Part shown: positions 9,925-58,910 of the stretch, piece by piece
Layout: every line of letters begins with the position of its first letter
Numbering within the stretch: the first letter of the stretch is position 1
Source: Chrysomallon squamiferum
Lineage: Eukaryota > Animalia > Mollusca
Assembly (NCBI GenBank): GCA_012295275.1
Contig: CM022677.1
Span: 24,180,001-24,244,000 of the forward strand
DNA: 64,000 nt
Reading direction: 5' to 3'
Notes under the pieces: model-generated
Databases searched by the model: none
The model's input: the letters and a program-made list of their open reading frames with translations, nothing else
Told to the model about the DNA's origin: nothing
Program-made: the position numbers and the translations under genes

Positions 9925-10205
9925 AAGAAGAAGAAGAAGAAGAAGACAAATAAATGTTCACGTTAACAAAACGGTGAGAAGTGAGATATTTCCAGTTTAA
10001 ATTGACGCCTCACGCGAGACACAAAATGGCGGCGATTTACGACACACTGTCGTCTGTTATCTTCCGCAGAACGTACGTGTCTCGCGCTAATTTTATTTTC
10101 CACTTCATTAAACCGGCAGAACATTTAGCCGTCGTACGCTTCATTAATCTGGTAACCTCTGACCTCTGTGACATCATTTTGAAATGACAACGACAGACCG
10201 AAAGG

Positions 10206-13553: not shown

Positions 13554-13943
13554 GTTATCATTATCATTCTTCTTCTTCTATTATTATTATTATTATTATT
13601 CATTTTTCCAGTAATTTTTGCTATTCGTTTTAATTCATTGATATTTCTTTCCTTGAGTTTTTTCTTTCCTTTGTTTTATTTTTCTTTTTATTTTTATTTT
13701 ATTGTGTGTGTTTGCTTGTTATTTGTTATTTTGTTTGTTTGTTTACTGATCTCTAATCATTTTTCATAAAAAAAAAAAAAAAAAAAAAAAAAAGAAAACG
13801 AAACTATTATTGAATATACTCTTATATTTATTCATTAATTTGGAAAAAGAAACAAAGATAATCACAAAGAAAATTAAAACCAATCATGCAAAAAACTAAA
13901 CACACACAAAAAAATCACACGCATGTACGCAGCAGCATCTGCA

Positions 13944-13981
<38 letters not shown>

Positions 13982-14315
13982 TTACTTGTTTGATACATTA
14001 AAAACAAAACAAATCAAATTTGTGACACTTCCGAAAGCGAACTTTCGTAAAAATCCGACATTCTCCGAATATACATCCAAAACTAAACCTTTGTTACGCT
14101 TTTATTATGCAAACAAGAAGTAGTAGCTGAGGATCAGTCTATAATAAATACTATGTACAAATATCACAGTACAGCGGCCTATCTTATGGGAACCAGTTAA
14201 CATCAAACTTCGTAAACGTCTGCTTTGCAAGCCGCTTTGAACCAGTCGAAATAAAAATTCACGGTGAAAATATATCTCTCTAAAAGGAGTGTTATTAATA
14301 CTGCTGTTGTTTGTA

Positions 14316-14348
<33 letters not shown>

Positions 14349-14708
14349 TGTAAGGTGGTTAATTTATTAATTGATTTATAATTACTAGTAGTTTTACTTG
14401 TTCAACGGAAACGAACGAAAACTATCGAAGCAAAAGAACGTAATGGATGTACAAGTTTACTTAATTCTTAAAGCCGTTTGTCGGAAAAAGAACGGAAGCA
14501 GACGAACAAAACCGAATATTATTTATATGTGACGGAAAGACCCGAACATCAACGGTTTACAAAGCAGAATCTACAAAGAAGTGCATAACTGCTCGCGCAT
14601 AATATGATAAGCTAGAGCGGAAATTCCGGGACTATATAATACTCAATACCATAAAAAAATATATATATATATAATAAGTTGCGTATATATTTACAAAGCA
14701 TAAATAAA

Positions 14709-14714
14709 TTTATT
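14709..14714 (-). terminator. Poly(A) signal AATAAA of the minus-strand transcript
   Basis: Plus-strand TTTATT at 14709-14714. No other TTTATT was seen between here and the acceptor at 16150, although ATTAAA variants occur near 14950-14975. Confidence 0.45.
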
Positions 14715-14728
14715 GCTATTTACATATA

Positions 14729-14746
14729 TGGACGGATTTGATAGGG
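14729..14746 (-). promoter_or_regulatory. miR-184-3p complementary site B
   Basis: The minus strand reads CCCUAUCA-AA-UCCGUCCA. It has the same 8mer and central loop as site A, with one bulged miRNA A in the 3' helix. Confidence 0.65.
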
Positions 14747-14793
14747 ATAAATAATGTGTGGTCCATATTTACTAAGGTACACTTATCGTTACG

Positions 14794-14812
14794 TGGACGG
14801 ATTTGATAAGGG
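14794..14812 (-). promoter_or_regulatory. miR-184-3p complementary site A (8mer seed, central loop, 9-bp 3' pairing)
   Basis: The minus strand reads CCCUUAUCA-AA-UCCGUCCA. miR-184-3p (recalled sequence UGGACGGAGAACUGAUAAGGGC) pairs at nt 1-8 and 13-21, with nt 9-12 unpaired opposite AA. Confidence 0.7.
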
Positions 14813-15404
14813 ATCCTCTTAAATAAGGCAGGATTAAGACGGTACCATACGAGACTATTGTCTTTGACATTTGTTTTTAAATAAATAAAATAATTACCAG
14901 TACTACGTGAACTAACAAGAGTTTTAGCACGTAATTCAGTTTTGGAGTTTAATATTTTTGCCGAACAAATTTAATAAAACGTTCAAAATAAACTTTAAAT
15001 CATAACATTTCTTGAACCAAGCGAAAAAAAATAATTTAAGAAAAAGAAAAATAGTACCGTATGATAGTGTCTTTCGGGGTGTTAGTAATAACGTATGTTA
15101 GTAACCATTAATCGTACTATCGCTCGCTTAATGACGTCATAAATGAGTTACATAGCAACGACATCGTGATTGTGACGTCATAATGATTTAAATGATTATG
15201 ACAGATAGAGTTATTTAAATATTAATGACGACAAACATTTTAAAATTATTATGACGTCATGAATAATTTAAATAGCAATGACATCATTAAATAATTTATG
15301 CGATTATGAAATTAGTTAAAATAAATATACTTTTGAGCTATATATTAAAACAATTTTAAAATATTAATTAAAAAATATGTTTCATAAAACACTGTTATAA
15401 AAAC

Positions 15405-15447
<43 letters not shown>

Positions 15448-15973
15448 TTCCTTGTCTTACAAAACAGATCTTTCTTCCTTGCTTCAACGATTTTATGACG
15501 TCATCGCGTTGATAAAATTATATATTTATAAATACTGATAATGAATACTGTATTTACATTTCGATGTCAAATCTTGAAAAATCTAAGACTAAATAAAAAT
15601 AAATAAATAAATAAATATATGGAATTCTTAAGAACTACGGCAGTGTTTGGGCATAAGTAAGTGTCTTTCTTTCTTATTTTCCCTGCAACATGGCGATTGT
15701 ACACGACGTCATTTAACTTTCATTACTTCTCTTGTTCATTAATAATTATGTTGTAAAATGTGTGTTGCTGTAATTGGTGACGTCAGTTCGTTGTATGATG
15801 ATACTCAGCAGTATTCGTCGAAGTGAAGAGGTTTCGGCTGGAGAATGACGTTGTGAACACTTGTGACGTCATTTCGTTGTTTGGGTTTCGTTTCCTCTGA
15901 GGTATTCTGCTGTAAAGAGGCGGTTGCTGGTGGGCTATGACGTCATTTCGTTTACCGGATGATGACGTAATGT

Positions 15974-20364
<4,391 letters not shown>

Positions 20365-20819
20365 TAGCCGTCTGCCGCTCGTACATTCCACCGCCTAGGC
20401 GCGCACGGGTCCCTTCTACGACTGCTCGCGTCTCTAAGGCTACGAGACGCGCACGTAAGCTTTTATACAGTCGAATATGCCTCCATTTCTCGAACGCGCC
20501 TGGGCACGACAGGAATTTTTTTTATTTCAGAGTGGTTTTTTTTTTTTTTTTTCCAACTCGACAATTCGGTGCTGGTAGCCTGGAAATTTCGTTATGGGTA
20601 CAACAACAATGTTAACCAACAGAAACAAACTGCAGAGATCAATACGAGATTATCGCTTTTTTTTTTTTTTTCTTTTTTTCTTTTTAATTATATACGTATA
20701 ACAGTGTAATTCATGTCAAGTTAGATCGTGTGGTAAATACAGTCGTAGATACAACGGAAAATTATAAACAGACACTCTTGTGTTATGAATAGGTGTATAG
20801 GGAGATGGAGTTAGTAGAT

Positions 20820-20889
<70 letters not shown>

Positions 20890-21171
20890 GTAAGTAGTGA
20901 AATGAGCAGGAGAGTATATACTAGATAGATAGGTAGTACAGCGATGGGTAGAATGGTGGGTACGTTATATATAGATAGACTTGTAGGGAGGCAAACAGGT
21001 GTTTATTTCGTGCATGGATATGCATATGGCTAATTGGGTAAAAAAACTTTGCGAGGTAGTTAGATACGGAGAACTGTCAGTGACAGGTATACAGTTACAG
21101 GTGAATAATTAGGTAATGACGGATTAGGTAGGTTTATAGGTACGTTCGTAGGTAGGAAGATACACAGATAG

Positions 21172-21259
<88 letters not shown>

Positions 21260-21920
21260 ACAGTAGACAGACAGATAGAAACATAAAATGACAGACGGAT
21301 AGACGGACAGATATTATAAAACAAATAAAAGAGACCTGCATGCTAGATAACAACTATATCGAAATATATACAAACATTCATGCACACAAATACACACATA
21401 AACAACCACTCGCATGCGTTCACTGGCACACACGTACATAAACACATCCATACATCAATCTATCTATATGTATATATACACATACATACACACACACATT
21501 TATATACGTACATATACATACATGCATACACATACATACATACACATACATACATACATACATACATACATACGTACACACATGCACAGACAATGTGCAC
21601 ATGTCTATTTACACATACCACAAACAGACTGTGTGAAAGATTGAATCGTTCACAGTCTAGATGATTCATTCCTTACTTATTCTTAACATTTTCATTTTGA
21701 TTTTTTTAAATTTTTATTGTTATTCGTGCTGTTGAATTTTTCTCTTTCCATGACGTTTTTTGTCATGTTTGGTCATCTCTCTGTCTGTCTCTCTCTGTCT
21801 CTCTGTCTCTCTCTCTGTCTCTGTATCGCTCTGTTTCTGTCTCTCTCTGTCTCTGTCTCTCTCTATCTTTCTTTCTTTCTCTCTGTATATATGTAATGAG
21901 AGAGAGAGACAGAGAGATAC

Positions 21921-21999
<79 letters not shown>

Positions 22000-24489
22000 T
22001 AGAAACGAAATGTTTATTGTTTATATTGTTTTCTCCTCCCTTTTTCTGTTATGTTGGTGTTGTCGCTTTTGGGGGTTTTGTTTTCTTATTTTTTCCTCTT
22101 TTTATTTTACAGTTAGTTTAGTTGTTGTTTTATGGTTTTGTTTCTTTTTATTCTTTTTTTTTTTATTTTTTTTTTTTTTTTTTTATTTTTCTGGGTGGAG
22201 CGTTACCGGGTGGTTTTTTGTCACCGTTGACTGTATTCTTTGTTTTCAGTTTTGGCGAGGATCAGTTACAAAGATTAAAACATTTGCTGTAATGAAAAGA
22301 AACTCTCGGACAATAAAACAGCGCTTTGAAAAAAAATAAAAGAGAAGCAGCGAGAAGGAAGTGTCTTAGAAAAAAAAAATAAAATAATAATCACTGAGGT
22401 GAATAGTTTAATACTTTGCGTGTTGGGACATGAAGTAAGTAACAGAAAGAGACGTTGTGAGTTGTGTGCGTGCGTGCGTGCGTGCGTGTTGTTTCAGTTT
22501 GTGTGTGAGTGCGTTTCAATATGTCGGAATGAATATGGTGGTGTGTTTGTGCGTGTGTGCGCGCATGTGTGTGTGTGTAGTTCTGTGAGTCTGTATGCCT
22601 GCGATGAGTGTGTGCATGTGTCTGTATGTATATGTGTATGTGTGTGTATCTGTATCTGTATCTATCTACCTATGTGTGTGTAGGTATGTATCTATCTATC
22701 TATATCTATTAAGTATAGGTTTTGTTAAAATTCCAATGCATGCATTGATATGTATCACAATCTTTCTCAATCCCCGTTTGACTGTAACAGAAACCAAACC
22801 TCGTGCATTTTACAACTACGACTACAGCATAATCCGTACTAATCCTCGGATCTATCAGAATAATCGCATTATCCAACCGTGTAAATAAGAACCTGCACTG
22901 ATACCCAGTTTAATGGTTGTTATGTGTGTTATCATTTAATTTATTACTAGGTGCGTCTTATTGTAATAGATTCAGTTCATTTGTTTCTGTTATTGTGGGG
23001 CAAGATTAAAAATATAAAGAATAAAAGAACAAAGAAAAGAAATGAATAAAATTAAAAATTAAAAAAAAAACAAGAACAAAGAAGCAAAAACAAACTAAAA
23101 GAAATTGGAAGAGCAAAGAATGAAAGAAAATTCTAAATGCAAAGGAAAAAAGAAAAGAAAAAGAAAAGAAAGAAAGAAATAAATGGACGAAAATTATATT
23201 TACACGCACAAACGAGCGAACTCATGAGATACTCATATGAACACACAACTACGCAAACTGGAACACGCATATACACACACATACAGACGCATGCTGGCAC
23301 ACACATATCAACACACAAATACGCACATTCATACACACATATGCACATGCGCGCATGCACACAGGCGCACATACGAACACACTCAGATGCACATATGCAC
23401 AAGTGCACACACAGACTGTATACAATGATGCAAACATAAACTGATTATATTAAAAAATAAATAAAATAAATAAAAAAATAAAAATAAAAAAGTTCAGACA
23501 CAATATCATTGCATGGAAACTTTTCTCCTGCGTATAAAAAAAAAAAAAAAAAAAAAAAATGTACCGTTATTTTCTGTCACGTGACGTAATTTAATTTCAC
23601 CAGCGAGGCAGCTCTCCTCCTTTGATGGGCGGCAAGGAAGGGGGGGGGGAATGGTGGTGTGAGTGGGGGGGTGTACCTGTATTACGAAAAACCGGGCGAA
23701 ATAAACTATTTGAAATATGCGAAGCCACAAAAAACGTCACTAGGCCGGCCATAACTGAAATTCATCGATACCTATTTTCCTTTTTTTTTTTTTTTTTTTA
23801 AATTCTTTTTTTATTTTATTCATATGGCCCAATAAAGTTAACGACGGTATTCAGGGTCATGTGACATCGGATACCCGTGTAGACCTAGCGGTATATTAAT
23901 GACGGGTGGATGTGGGTCTATCGCTACGACTCCGTTCTTCATACGTCATCGAGTGGAACGGAATAAAATATGTTTTAAAGACAGGATAAACAAATGATCA
24001 ACGTGTTTTTTTTAAAAAACTGCATTGTCCGAGAGAGAATGAAGGAAGACGAATAGTGAAAAAGAGACAGTAATAAAAGTTTCAAAGGTAATTAATGTTT
24101 TAAATTCAGCTGTGCGTTTGACAAGAAAGAGTGCGTGAAAAACATTGCACAGCTGGAACAGAAACAAAGACAAATATATATATGTATATATAGATAGATA
24201 GATAGATGGACGGATAGATAGATAGATAGACAGATAGATAGAAAATAAATAGACAGAAGCAGATAGAAGAGAAAAGAGAATTTTAAAGAAAAAAGAAAGA
24301 TAGATGGAAAAGAAAAAAAGATAATTTTAGACAGACAGACAGACAGATAACATAGACAGACACATACATGCACACATCGACAGACAGATACACAGATATT
24401 TAAGATATACTAAATAATATTTCCAATGTCTTCTGATATTTGATGATACTTAATTATCATCACTGATTCCGCCTTACTCTTTATTTTTA

Positions 24490-26050: not shown

Positions 26051-26769
26051 CATGTGTGTGTGTGTCTGTGTACCTACATACGTTCATACGTACATAAATA
26101 AATATATATATATATATATACATACATATACACATTCACACATATATATAATATATATACATGCATACATATAAATGCATACATATAAATATATATATAT
26201 ATATATGCATGCATGCATTTAATGTATGTACTTATATATGTATGCATGTATATATGTGTGTATGTATGTACATATATATTTATTTACGTACGTATGAACG
26301 TATGTAGGTACACATACACACATACACACACATATAATATACATCTAACATATTTACTGGCACATAAATACATACATACATACATACATACACACGCACA
26401 CACAAACACACACATTTGCATTACAGTAACAAATTAACGATTCATTGTAAAAAAATAATAACAATAATTATTACAAACAAACACGTATACGATTAACTAT
26501 AATTATCGGTAATACGTGAGTTCTGTTGAATATCAGTGATTTATAAACCTGTTTTACCTGCAAACCACTGATAGAGAAATGTGCATTCTAATTTATCACC
26601 TTGTACGATTTGTATAAGGTTACGAATAAAGAGCGCTATCTCCCGAAAGCCACTAAGTTAGAAGTTAACGGTGCATATTGTAAATATTGTATGGGCTGAG
26701 TGAGATAAAATTAACATAAATTAACGTGATACGTAATAATTTAAAGAAAACCATCCTTTGTAATGTATT

Positions 26770-26844
26770 AGTTGACGGCATGTGGTCGAAAGTTAGTGGG
26801 TTTTGACGGTAAATAATACATCTAGTTGAAAAAATATTTTCCAT

Positions 26845-26875
<31 letters not shown>

Positions 26876-27270
26876 TTACTATGTTATTGTATGTTAACGG
26901 TTTATAAAGGTAAAATAAATAAGGTGTCCTCTTGTGTTAGATATATCCAACAAATATAATCTATTATTTTTAAAAATATATTGCTGTAAGTTAACGGTTC
27001 ATAACGGTAAATAGCATGCCCTCTTGTTTCAGATATACTATCTTTTACACAAAAAAAAATTGTTGAAAGTTAATGGTTTATAACGGTAAACAATACGTCC
27101 TATTATTTTATTTTTTATTTTTTTTCCACAAATATAATTTATTATTTTTAAATACATTGTTGTAAGTTAACGGTTCATAACGGTAAAAGATATGTCCTCT
27201 TGTTTACGAAGATAACGTATTTTTTGTAGATGCATCGTTGTAAACTAACGGTCCATAGCGGTAAATTATG
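26770..27270 (+). repeat. Degenerate tandem array, core GTTAACGGTTCATAACGGTAAA, alternating about 97/79-bp spacing
   Basis: Core copies near 26893, 26990, 27069, 27166 and 27245. 26950-27010 and 27129-27187 are near-identical, giving a dimer period of about 177 bp. Confidence 0.85.
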
Positions 27271-27860
27271 CGACATGATATGTCCGCCTTTTAGCCAAAT
27301 ATAAACAGGCTTACCTAGCAATTGTTCAGCAGTCAAATTAACTGTAATATGTTAACATATTCACAGCATATTTAGAAATTAATTTATTGAAGAAGTACAG
27401 AAGAAGAAGAAGAAGAAGAAGAAGAAGAAGAAGAAGAAGAAGAAAGAAAACAGAAACAAAACAAACTAAGAATAAACCGAAACAAATCATAAAAACAACA
27501 TTATCTTCAACAACAACAACTAAATAATAACACCAACAGTAGTAGTAGTAGCAGTCAAAGTAGTAGTAATAGTAGTAGTAGTATCATCATTAACATTATT
27601 ATTATTGTTGTTGTTTTTGTTGCTGTTGTTATTAATAGCAGTTATAGTAATAGTATTGTAGTAGTTGTTGTAGTGGTACTAAACGTAGCAGTAGTAGTGA
27701 CGATGGTTGTAGTAGTAGAAGTAGTAGCAGCATCAGCAGTAGTAGTAGCAGTAGTGGTAGTAGTAGTAGCAGTAGTACCATTAATAGTGGTAGTAGTTGT
27801 AGTAATATTAGTAGCAGTAAGAGTATTATTAGTAGAGATGACAGTTGCAGTAGTAGTAGC

Positions 27861-31639: not shown

Positions 31640-32770
<1,131 letters not shown>

Positions 32771-57128: not shown

Positions 57129-57531
57129 ATCGCCACAAGAAGTGTACAAAATGTCATCTTCTTCCATCCCAGCTGATATACTTGCGCATCTCCAACAGTA
57201 TGACGTCACAATGGCCCCATTGGAACAATGCCAAGAACGACAATTCAGAAAGTCATATACCAACATACCAAGGTTATCGAATAAAAACGACGAATGCAGA
57301 ATATCTACGAAAAATAACGATAATTGTTTATTATATCAAAGTTTTGAGAATTTTGATAAAGTAAACTTTTCACAAGAGAATGACGTCAATAGATGTAGTT
57401 GGTATGCACGTAATAACAGAAGGGAATCTATGACGTCACATTCATCTACGTCATCAATGAATGATGCTGACAAGGACGATTACCAGTTAAACGAAGATGG
57501 AGGTGTGCACCTAGATGAATACAATCCATAT
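57129..57531 (+). CDS. Exon 2 of an uncharacterised, low-complexity, probably nuclear protein
   Basis: Acceptor TTTCTTTCCTTTCAG| (AG at 57127-57128), a 403-nt non-repetitive open frame (SPQEVYKMSSSSIPADILAHLQQY...DEYNPY), and a consensus donor |GTGAGT at 57532 (phase 0). An in-frame ATG in AAAATG context is at 57151. Confidence 0.8.
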
Positions 57532-57537
57532 GTGAGT

Positions 57538-57572
57538 ATCTATCTATCTATCTATCTATCCGTCTATCTATG

Positions 57573-57618
<46 letters not shown>

Positions 57619-57619
57619 C

Positions 57620-57650
<31 letters not shown>

Positions 57651-57663
57651 CCTATCTATCTAC

Positions 57664-57736
<73 letters not shown>

Positions 57737-57750
57737 AATCAATCTATCTG

Positions 57751-57788
<38 letters not shown>

Positions 57789-57848
57789 AATCTATCTATC
57801 TATCTATCTATCAACGTATCTATCTATTATGAATGTATCTATCTATCT
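57538..57848. repeat. (TCTA)n microsatellite in intron 2 of the plus-strand gene
   Basis: Starts immediately after the GTGAGT donor and explains the YLSI-repeat tail of ORF 57091-57897. Confidence 0.95.
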
Positions 57849-58123
57849 GTATGTATTTTTTTTTTTTCTCTATTTCTTTATTTGTTTGTTCGTTTGAATC
57901 AGATAGTTGTGGCGCTTATTCATTAAGGCCAAAACTTCATATTTTAAAAACTGATCGCAATATCAATCGTAACTCAGGCTCTTTTTTTTTTTTTTTTTTT
58001 TTGCCGTTCCTACTAATTTGCAAAACGTTATTTTAAGAAAGATATACTTAATTATTTATATATACATATACATCGTTATTTATTTATTTCATATTTATTT
58101 TCACTGAATGTTCCATTTTCCAG

Positions 58124-58708
58124 AGACAAAGAAATCTACAGGAGTCTACACCAAAAGGGAAAATGTTTACAAACGCTTTACAGGGTTTACCATTTCAGTA
58201 TCCTGCAAGAAAAAACCGTTTCCAGAAAAACAAATTTTCTAACAATTCTGAACGTGATACCAGAGTACAACCCGTATCCAGAAAGCGTCTTAGGTTTGAT
58301 GACGTCACACCAGATTTGACGTCATACCAGTTTCAGTCGGACATAGGACTTAATGGTAAAACTTTAGAAAATTTATTTCGGTCTCGTGAAATTGAGACGA
58401 CACCGATGCATGACGTCATTTGTGGACGACCACGTGACCGTGCTGGACAACTGTCCAATAGAAAAAGATCATTTGATCACGTGGTGCAGAACGACAGAAG
58501 TGTAAATAAGTGCTCTAACTGTGAATGTTGTGTGTCTCAACATCAAGAAAAATATTCTGTTTCAAATAAATATCGGTCATCATCCTCGTCATCATCATCG
58601 TCATCATCATCATCATCAGCGTCGTCAGCAACAACGACTTCAAGTTATGCAGATCTTCGCACGCCAGAAGACACGGCGATTAAAACAAGAGAAACAAACC
58701 GGAAGTAA
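58124..58708 (+). CDS. Exon 3 of the same gene, reading as assembled to TAA at 58706-58708 (332 aa total from ATG 55642)
   Basis: Acceptor TTCCATTTTCCAG| (AG at 58122-58123) is phase 0 and in frame with ORF 58163-58708. The exon encodes basic NLS-like motifs RKRLRF and RKRSF, a CSNCECC cluster and a poly-Ser tract. Confidence 0.78.
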   Translation, partial: RQRNLQESTPKGKMFTNALQGLPFQYPARKNRFQKNKFSNNSERDTRVQPVSRKRLRFDDVTPDLTSYQFQSDIGLNGKTLENLFRSREIETTPMHDVICGRPRDRAGQLSNRKRSFDHVVQNDRSVNKCSNCECCVSQHQEKYSVSNKYRSSSSSSSSSSSSSSASSATTTSSYADLRTPEDTAIKTRETNRK

Positions 58709-58910
58709 CAACTGCGCATGCGCAACATTGAAACAAGATCTGCTGGAGATGGCAGAGCGTGCGTACGGCAATATTCGAAGGCGTGACGCGACACCTGGCG
58801 GATTTTGTCAGTTTCGCGCTGAAATTAGCACGACGAACTGTTTACTGCAGGAAACGCTGACAGTTTTACAAAGTCTCACACAACTCTGTGACCACGTTGT
58901 CAGGCGTTAA
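58686..58910 (+). CDS. Probable true C-terminus in the +1 frame (QEKQTGSNNCACATLKQDLLEMAERAY...LCDHVVRR*); 399 aa total if joined
   Basis: The +1 frame is open from 58506 to 58910. GC-rich, coding-like sequence continues to the TAA at 58908-58910 and then drops to AT-rich UTR-like sequence. The translation has an amphipathic helical pattern. Confidence 0.6.
   Translation, partial: QEKQTGSNNCACATLKQDLLEMAERAYGNIRRRDATPGGFCQFRAEISTTNCLLQETLTVLQSLTQLCDHVVRR

What the first reader, a model, noticed from the sequence alone, without database searches (positions are those of the whole stretch)
14729..14812. Two miR-184 sites with TDMD-trigger architecture at the 3' end of a predicted lncRNA
Seen: the plus strand has TGGACGGA-TT-TGATAAGGG (14794-14812) and TGGACGGA-TT-TGATAGGG (14729-14746), 65 nt apart. 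Established (sequence from memory): bilaterian miR-184-3p is UGGACGGA-GAAC-UGAUAAGGG-C/U. A minus-strand RNA would pair with miRNA nt 1-8 (8mer) and nt 13-21, leaving nt 9-12 in a 4x2 internal loop over the slicing position. Seed plus central bulge plus long 3' pairing is the layout of known triggers of ZSWIM8/Dora-dependent miRNA decay (Cyrano/miR-7, Nrep-libra/miR-29b, Marge/miR-310 family). Independent signals (TATA, donor, acceptor, AATAAA 14 nt past site B) predict a transcript on exactly that strand. Inference: this is an unannotated invertebrate RNA that degrades or sponges miR-184. I know of no described trigger for miR-184, but could not check the literature. The two sites may come from one duplication, so they are not independent evidence.
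Basis: partly seen in the sequence, partly recalled or inferred. Interest (0 to 1): 0.92.

Follow-up and report, generated by a model that had tools for sequence, protein, structure and literature searches.

The report
Candidate miR-184-destroying long non-coding RNA
A spliced, apparently non-coding RNA of an invertebrate (probably a snail) carries two neighbouring docking sites for the microRNA miR-184, one shaped like the sites that make cells destroy a microRNA, so it likely works as an off-switch for miR-184, which would be the first such switch for this microRNA and the first in a mollusc.

Summary
Observation confirmed. Both motifs are at the stated places, and the miR-184-3p sequence matches published snail, fly and tick tables. 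The predicted gene is real. RNA contigs from 3 of 3 runs (one study) splice 20291 to 16149 across a 4.1-kb intron that reads GT..AG on the minus strand, downstream of a TATA box. That is the strand that pairs with miR-184. One of 3 RNA runs has a contig spanning both sites; continuity with the junction is inferred across two microsatellite gaps. No stable ORF: frameshift polymorphisms, no credible homologue. Site 14794-14812 (8mer plus 9 bp to nt 13-21) meets published TDMD-trigger criteria; 0 of 200,000 shuffled microRNAs do as well. Site 14729-14746 is only a 3'-supplemented site. Correction: the sites are not at the 3' end; RNA continues at least 750 nt past the nearby AATAAA. Best reading: a Cyrano/Marge-type lncRNA that triggers miR-184 decay (0.55). 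Main rival: high-affinity decoy or target without decay (0.27). Conservation, decay and a ZSWIM8 gene were untestable here. Ten paper searches found no miR-184 trigger and no paper holding both 'TDMD' and 'mollus'. The scan noted TDMD-like sites for other microRNAs elsewhere, none for miR-184.

The parts
20460..20467 (-). TATA box (TATAAAAG on the minus strand)
   Evidence: Sequence; RNA contigs begin 33-34 nt beyond its last base.
20291..20427 (-). Exon 1 of the lncRNA; 5' edge seen at 20426-20427, start site predicted near 20437
   Evidence: Contigs of X2 (20291-20426), X3 (20291-20427) and X4 (20291-20395); no RNA cover from 20485 to 20815.
16150..20290 (-). 4,141-nt intron, GTGAG donor and pyrimidine-tract CAG acceptor
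   Evidence: Loose end before 20291 in 3 of 3 RNA runs equals window 16120-16149. The same contigs (676 nt in X2, 721 nt in X3) lie on 15627-16150. Intron cover is 1-9% of exon cover in X2 and X3.
13980..16149 (-). Exon 2, at least 2.17 kb; the 3' end lies beyond 13980
   Evidence: RNA contigs with no joint inside. Run X3 has cover in 30 of 30 bins; pieces break at microsatellites, so continuity is inferred.
14794..14812 (-). S1: miR-184 site, 8mer plus 9 contiguous bp to nt 13-21, 4x2 central loop; the candidate TDMD trigger
   Evidence: 3' pairing -13.4 kcal/mol; MFE ratio 0.79-0.81; seed more open than 89% of local 8-mers; spanned by an X3 RNA contig.
14729..14746 (-). S2: miR-184 site, 8mer plus interrupted 3' pairing; 3'-supplemented site below trigger thresholds
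   Evidence: 3' pairing -8.7; ratio 0.66-0.67.
14709..14714 (-). AATAAA 14 nt past S2; at most a minor proximal polyadenylation signal
   Evidence: Sequence; RNA runs on past it.
13827..13832 (-). Distal AATAAA with a U-rich downstream element; best predicted 3' end (about 13810)
   Evidence: Other AATAAA at 14368 and 14106.
15465..15483 (-). miR-750-3p site (7mer-m8 plus 6 bp and 3 bp of 3' pairing); possible second microRNA partner, below trigger thresholds
   Evidence: 3' energy -10.9, best of 11 seed matches in the window; ratio 0.62-0.64. Uses the Biomphalaria sequence; found post hoc.
15974..20364 (-). Longest ORF, 76-82 codons across the junction, open only in some alleles; probably not a real protein
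   Evidence: The window allele gives 43 + 57 aa; X4's 4-nt insertion at 20309 breaks it; 88 of 1,000 shuffles reach 82 aa.

Best explanation
This is a spliced, two-exon RNA of at least 2.3 kb, likely non-coding, whose second exon likely carries two miR-184 sites, and it likely lowers miR-184 by target-directed microRNA degradation. Shown: the minus-strand transcript, its intron, the two sites, their pairing geometry, and the absence of a stable ORF. Inferred from the established ZSWIM8/Dora pathway: Argonaute loaded with miR-184 docks on S1 by the seed, the unpaired nt 9-12 prevent slicing, nine base pairs pull the microRNA's 3' end out of its pocket, the ZSWIM8 ubiquitin ligase recognises that shape, Argonaute is degraded and miR-184 is lost while the lncRNA survives. 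S2 would be a weaker helper or a short-3'-pairing trigger. Because miR-184 is very abundant in snails, the effect would be expected only in the cells or conditions where this RNA is high.
For: Strand predicted from the sites is the strand shown by splicing, 3 of 3 RNA runs. S1 meets the four criteria of Sheng et al. (seed, 9 consecutive 3' bp, bulge under 7 nt, energy; PMC10102002) and the TDMDfinder 'predicted' class, at the edge of 'high confidence' (ratio 0.79-0.81). Its 3' pairing starts at nt 13 and is -13.4 kcal/mol, against a validated-trigger range of -9.6 to -17.1, median -13.53 (PMC10899785; different software). 0 of 200,000 shuffled microRNAs match as well. The sites lie in non-coding sequence, as validated triggers do. 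No protein to repress: frameshift alleles at 16119 and 20309, and no credible homologue. The site region differs from the window at 0.5% in X3 versus 1.6% in the intron (p = 0.052, one comparison).
Against: No decay, Argonaute binding or ZSWIM8 dependence was measured; no genome was held in which to look for mir-184 or ZSWIM8. Only 1 of 3 RNA runs laid on the sites has a contig there; X1 and X2 have a hole from about 14345 to 14843 (the tool warns that filtered records leave holes). All junction evidence is from one study. Continuity from junction to sites crosses two microsatellite gaps, and weak polyA variants lie between. No orthologue was found. Geometry over-predicts: 17 of 37 TDMDfinder predictions worked, three fly candidates that met two of three screening criteria failed, and retargeted Cyrano-type sites inhibited microRNAs without ZSWIM8 (PMC11662681). 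The target side of the loop is only 2 nt, while the review gives 3-11 unpaired nt and Cyrano has more target than microRNA nucleotides in the loop. Two synthetic sites 60 nt apart were no better than one. The conservation signal is not significant.
Confidence: 0.55

Rival explanations
1. The lncRNA binds miR-184 tightly but does not destroy it. It is either a competing decoy, or a 3'-supplemented target whose own level is set by miR-184 and several other microRNAs.
For: Two sites rather than one; S2 is a typical supplemented site. Six further 8mers for five other microRNA families among 40 snail seeds checked by eye, against 1.44 expected (p 0.004, or 0.016 counting the repeat-borne miR-981 pair once). 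TDMD-like sites can act competitively without ZSWIM8. miR-184 is the third most abundant microRNA in Biomphalaria haemolymph, which is hard to deplete.
Against: Two sites are too few to titrate so abundant a microRNA without turnover (inference). Nine contiguous 3' bp exceed the 3-5 bp of ordinary supplementary pairing.
Confidence: 0.27
2. The RNA is an mRNA for a 76-82-residue peptide, and the sites are 3' UTR sites by which miR-184 represses it (TDMD from a 3' UTR would still be possible).
For: With the 1-nt deletion at 16119 seen in X2, X3 and X6 an ORF opens across the junction; X2 and X6 carry an in-frame 18-nt deletion; G+C is higher there, 45-47%.
Against: The window allele and X4's 4-nt insertion break the frame. 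An ATG lies upstream at 20386. 88 of 1,000 shuffles give an ORF as long. The 57-aa exon-2 frame has no homologue, and the 4 hits are singleton translated tandem repeats. Only that frame was searched, not the joined ORF.
Confidence: 0.08
3. The sites are relics of, or perfect matches to, a divergent MIR-184 paralogue, so the RNA is sliced or the match is a by-product of duplication.
For: Oysters have 43 MIR-184 genes (cited in PMC9820140); both sites share the same TT centre, as a common template would give.
Against: No precursor hairpin on either strand (5 folds, z from -0.01 to -0.88); no MIR-184 match in Rfam at E up to 10; the spliced RNA is the complementary strand; the snail tables list only the canonical mature form.
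Confidence: 0.05
4. Chance match with a short local duplication, lying in an unrelated lncRNA, or on a part of the locus not covered by the spliced RNA.
Against: It must also fall in an exon on the right strand, and be duplicated with diverged flanks. No AATAAA or ATTAAA lies between the acceptor and 14975. Cover of 14945-15392 is 0.39-0.59 of the junction contig in all 3 runs (weak, contig depth is a poor measure).
Confidence: 0.05

Closest known systems
Drosophila Marge (CR43432) lncRNA, trigger for the miR-310 family (Kingston et al. 2022, not read; seen through PMC10899785 and bioRxiv 10.1101/2025.02.20.639214 passages)
   Same: Invertebrate lncRNA with a seed + loop + extended 3' pairing site for a microRNA.
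   Different: Different microRNA and phylum; Marge is validated by knock-out; no sequence relationship was tested.
Cyrano (OIP5-AS1) / miR-7 and libra-Nrep / miR-29b (PMC10899785 section 10; PMC11662681 passages)
   Same: Non-coding sequence with a strong seed site, central loop and long 3' pairing.
   Different: Cyrano has 14 contiguous 3' bp, a loop of 2 microRNA by 4 target nt and a single site. Here there are 9 bp, a loop of 4 microRNA by 2 target nt and a second weaker site. Conservation is shown there, not here.
Drosophila Kah 3' UTR trigger cluster, miR-9b plus miR-279 family (bioRxiv 10.1101/2024.12.11.627053, passages)
   Same: More than one site in one transcript, a canonical one and one with short 3' pairing; the possible miR-750 site here would add a second family.
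   Different: Kah is an mRNA and its sites serve different families; here the two main sites serve the same microRNA.
MIR-184 gene family
   Same: The plus strand reads like mature miR-184 with a changed centre.
   Different: No hairpin, no Rfam match, and the RNA is the opposite strand: a target, not a gene copy.

Membership tests
TDMD trigger RNA | Seed pairing, typically an 8mer | tested here: met
   Both sites are 8mers.
TDMD trigger RNA | At least 6-7 contiguous bp to the microRNA 3' end, starting near nt 12-13 | tested here: met
   S1: 9 bp, nt 13-21. S2 does not meet it (5 contiguous at most). Thresholds.
TDMD trigger RNA | 3' pairing energy and MFE ratio in the range of validated triggers | tested here: met
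   S1 -13.4 kcal/mol and ratio 0.79-0.81; S2 -8.7 and 0.66-0.67, not met (ViennaRNA, not the papers' programs).
TDMD trigger RNA | Central unpaired loop over nt 9-10 | tested here: met
   4 microRNA by 2 target nt. Within the 2-8 nt and under-7 nt definitions; the target side is short of the review's 3-11 nt if that counts target bases.
TDMD trigger RNA | Site lies in the non-coding part of an expressed RNA of the right strand | tested here: met
   Spliced minus-strand RNA in 3 of 3 runs; sites on an RNA contig in 1 of 3 runs; the link between them is inferred.
TDMD trigger RNA | Site conserved across species | tested here: inconclusive
   No eukaryote genomes are held. 119 metagenome matches show no flank homology. 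Within-species signal p = 0.052.
TDMD trigger RNA | Loss of the site, or of ZSWIM8, raises the mature microRNA only | not testable with these tools
   Needs experiment. This is the defining feature, so membership stays a prediction.
TDMD trigger RNA | Organism has mir-184 and a ZSWIM8 orthologue | not testable with these tools
   No genome held. miR-184 is identical in snail, fly and tick.
Long non-coding RNA | Over 200 nt with no conserved ORF | tested here: met
   At least 2.3 kb; longest ORF allele-dependent, no credible homologue for its exon-2 part. No ribosome data.
MIR-184 precursor gene | Precursor hairpin with the mature arm; Rfam match | tested here: not met
Multi-site sponge of the Cdr1as kind | Many seed sites for one microRNA (dozens, recalled) and circular form | tested here: not met
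   2 sites in the exons; no joint of any kind within 13980-16150.

The most novel reading that the evidence does not exclude
This lncRNA is the gastropod-wide degradation trigger for miR-184, the missing step behind the serotonin-induced fall of miR-184 in Aplysia neurons (seen only as a citation in PMC6207280), and a multi-microRNA trigger cluster that also acts on miR-750.
Probability: 0.12. Interest if true: 0.88.

Novelty: new member of a known kind. Interest (0 to 1): 0.68.

Why it matters
Validated invertebrate triggers in the papers read come from Drosophila; none had been identified in C. elegans as of the 2024 review. No paper in the library holds both 'TDMD' and 'mollus', and none of the four TDMD papers searched in full text for miR-184, nor the 2025 ZSWIM8 review, mentions it. 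If real, this extends trigger lncRNAs to a third large animal branch and gives the first trigger for a microRNA that is conserved from flies to humans. miR-184 is reported to fall with age in Biomphalaria and with serotonin in Aplysia. A defined 19-nt site in a mapped two-exon RNA makes both observations testable with a blocking oligonucleotide.

Tried and rejected
Genome-wide look for mir-184 and ZSWIM8: no genome held. Precursor-microRNA reading: rejected. My first guess of a promoter and intron near 15460-15530: rejected, contigs run through unspliced. The eight TGACGTCA words at 15132-16100 are not a cAMP-responsive promoter: they lie inside exon 2, six more lie in coding-like exons at 57201-58411, and none lies in 19900-24200. 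Pfam scan of 150 of 846 reading frames (145 best by complexity plus 5 local): only low-complexity hits, one above its cut-off (DUF3915, repeat-borne), none for a gene at this locus. Orthologue search in metagenome contigs: 119 loci fetched of about 150 estimated (53 of 64 parts scanned), about the chance number; the only alignments to the exons are the site itself plus a few letters. Holes over the sites in runs X1, X2 and X6, and over exon 1 in X5, are not taken as absence. Clade check from the exons at 58 kb: no homologue, atlas hits all under 0.9, so 'snail' rests on other agents' unchecked notes. miR-137, miR-8 and miR-2001 sites: weak 3' pairing, not trigger-like. The bacterial promoter scan does not apply. 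One search was too loose to inform: 10,474 papers, none of the 40 listed holds 'TDMD'. The Aplysia primary paper is not held. Supplements of PMC10102002: no 'mir-184' in the files searched, one scanned PDF not searched; bioRxiv supplements and image tables of triggers could not be seen and may list miR-184 hybrids or loop sizes.

Full report
Observation. The plus strand holds TGGACGGA-TT-TGATAAGGG at 14794-14812 (S1) and TGGACGGA-TT-TGATAGGG at 14729-14746 (S2). A minus-strand RNA pairs at S1 with nt 1-8 and 13-21 (-27.4 kcal/mol) and at S2 with nt 1-8 and an interrupted 3' block (-22.8). S1 is the best of 15,992 windows scanned. Of 200,000 shuffled microRNAs none finds an 8mer plus 9 bp in the exons. 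Across a genome and 100 microRNAs about 3 such single sites per Gb would arise by chance, so the case rests on the second site and on the transcript. The flanks of the two sites are unlike; the shared TT loop suggests a common origin.

The transcript. Six of 8 listed runs hold the stretch; four are on record as RNA, all from study P1. Laid on 13980-16150, contigs of X1, X2, X3 and X6 show no joint inside; X3 has cover in 30 of 30 bins and one contig (14680-14886, 1 other letter, depth 202) spans both sites, while X1, X2 and X6 have a hole there. Contigs ran 81-165 letters past 16150, so I laid the candidate first exon. In X2, X3 and X4 (3 of 3 RNA runs) the loose end before 20291 is letter for letter window 16120-16149. 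The skipped 4,141 nt begin CT and end AC on the plus strand, i.e. GT..AG on the minus strand, with a GTGAG donor and a pyrimidine-tract acceptor. Exon 1 contigs start at 20426-20427, below a TATA box at 20467-20460. Intron cover is 1-9% of exon cover in X2 and X3, and run X5 covers the intron at about 30-60-fold like DNA. The strand is therefore the one that pairs with miR-184. No single contig links junction and sites: the chain breaks at two microsatellites (15579-15626, 15393-15459). No AATAAA or ATTAAA occurs before 14975, though weaker variants do. RNA continues past the AATAAA at 14714 to at least 13980; the best predicted end is near 13810.

Coding potential. The window allele gives ORFs of 43 and 57 aa; with the 1-nt deletion seen in X2, X3 and X6 an ORF of 76-82 aa opens across the junction. 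X4's 4-nt insertion breaks it, and 88 of 1,000 shuffles give one as long. The exon-2 frame has no homologue among near-length proteins; the four hits among 1.84 billion representatives are singleton translated tandem repeats. The joined ORF itself was not searched. I read the RNA as non-coding.

Mechanism. Validated triggers have seed pairing, at least 6 contiguous 3' bp often starting at nt 12-13, 3' energies of -9.6 to -17.1 kcal/mol, a central loop and a non-coding position (PMC10899785). S1 has 9 bp from nt 13, -13.4 kcal/mol and an MFE ratio of 0.79-0.81; it passes the fly screening rules and TDMDfinder's predicted class. S2 fails them (-8.7, 0.66-0.67) and resembles the short-pairing Kah-279 type or a supplemented site. 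The step from geometry to decay is inference, and geometry over-predicts: 17 of 37 predictions validated, and retargeted sites worked without ZSWIM8. The short 2-nt target side of the loop is the least typical feature. I put TDMD at 0.55, decoy or target without decay at 0.27, peptide mRNA at 0.08, paralogue relic or slicing at 0.05 and chance at 0.05.

Other microRNA sites. Comparing by eye 40 seeds from two Biomphalaria tables with the exon words gave, besides miR-184, 8mers for miR-981 (15787, 15873, within a local repeat), miR-8 (14296), miR-1993 (14103), miR-2 (14162) and miR-137 (14710): 6 against 1.44 expected. A miR-750 7mer-m8 at 15465 has the best 3' pairing of 11 seed matches in the window but a ratio of 0.62-0.64. 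This is post hoc and uses another species' sequences; it is a lead.

Conservation. Not shown. No genome is held. The metagenome scan gave 119 loci without flank homology. Within the species, X3 differs from the window at 3 of 599 positions round the sites, 16 of 1,442 in the rest of exon 2 and 11 of 697 in the intron (p = 0.052 and 0.15). That the animal is a snail comes from other agents' unchecked notes on this genome; my own checks were inconclusive.

Literature. Searches: miR-184 + TDMD + trigger (8 papers), miR-184 + target-directed + degradation + lncRNA (13), miR-184 + ZSWIM8 (9), miR-184 + sponge + lncRNA + mollusc (3), TDMD + mollus (0). From these listings I opened only some papers; no title or abstract start names a miR-184 trigger. 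Seen: PMC10899785 section 10 whole plus passages; PMC12261956 passages and part 1 of 2 of section 17; PMC10102002 passages and a supplement search; passages only of PMC6814974, PMC9880601, PMC9820140, PMC7328434, PMC12467606, PMC3145563, PMC11662681, PMC6207280, PMC8887481 and bioRxiv 10.1101/2025.02.20.639214 and 10.1101/2024.12.11.627053. Kingston et al. 2022 was not read and Rajasethupathy et al. 2009 is not held; both are known through citations. Most subscription papers are outside the library, so 'not described' holds only for what was searched. The scan's own notes hold TDMD-like sites for miR-12, -7, -9, -29b and -148 in other genomes and no look-alike of this locus.

Verdict. A real, expressed, spliced lncRNA with one strong and one weaker miR-184 site. 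It works like a TDMD trigger by every feature testable here; membership awaits the decay test. New member of a known kind; interest 0.68.

Noticed in passing
L006 64-83 (-) and L098 5-24 (+): One AT-rich, microsatellite-bearing, eukaryote-like metagenome locus, seen in two samples, matches miR-184 nt 1-8 and 12-22 with the same TT loop. No flank similarity to the window, strand unknown, and 8 of 119 hits match nt 12 and 22 (chance level). Possibly a second trigger in another animal.
   Followed up: partly
window 20427: The X3 contig carries 29 extra letters at the RNA's 5' end that are not in the window; no AG acceptor there, so more likely a chimera than a spliced leader.
   Followed up: partly
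window 57130-57532 and 58124-58910 (+): Two likely coding exons with good splice signals; the second changes frame near 58700 (assembly error or polymorphism). No homologue found.
   Followed up: partly
window 15132-16100: 8 of the window's 18 TGACGTCA words lie in exon 2, several in short diverged repeats.
   Followed up: partly
window 14710-14717 (-): A miR-137 8mer lies 11 nt past S2 and overlaps the proximal AATAAA; 3' pairing is weak.
   Followed up: partly
window 10020-10080 (+): AAAATGGCGGC (YY1-like or start-codon context, label recalled) followed by a possible donor; may be the first exon of a plus-strand gene facing the lncRNA's 3' end.
   Followed up: no
window 26700-27280 and 31700-32520: Degenerate tandem repeats built on a TTAACGGT / ACCGTTAA word, in opposite orientation at the two places.
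   Followed up: no
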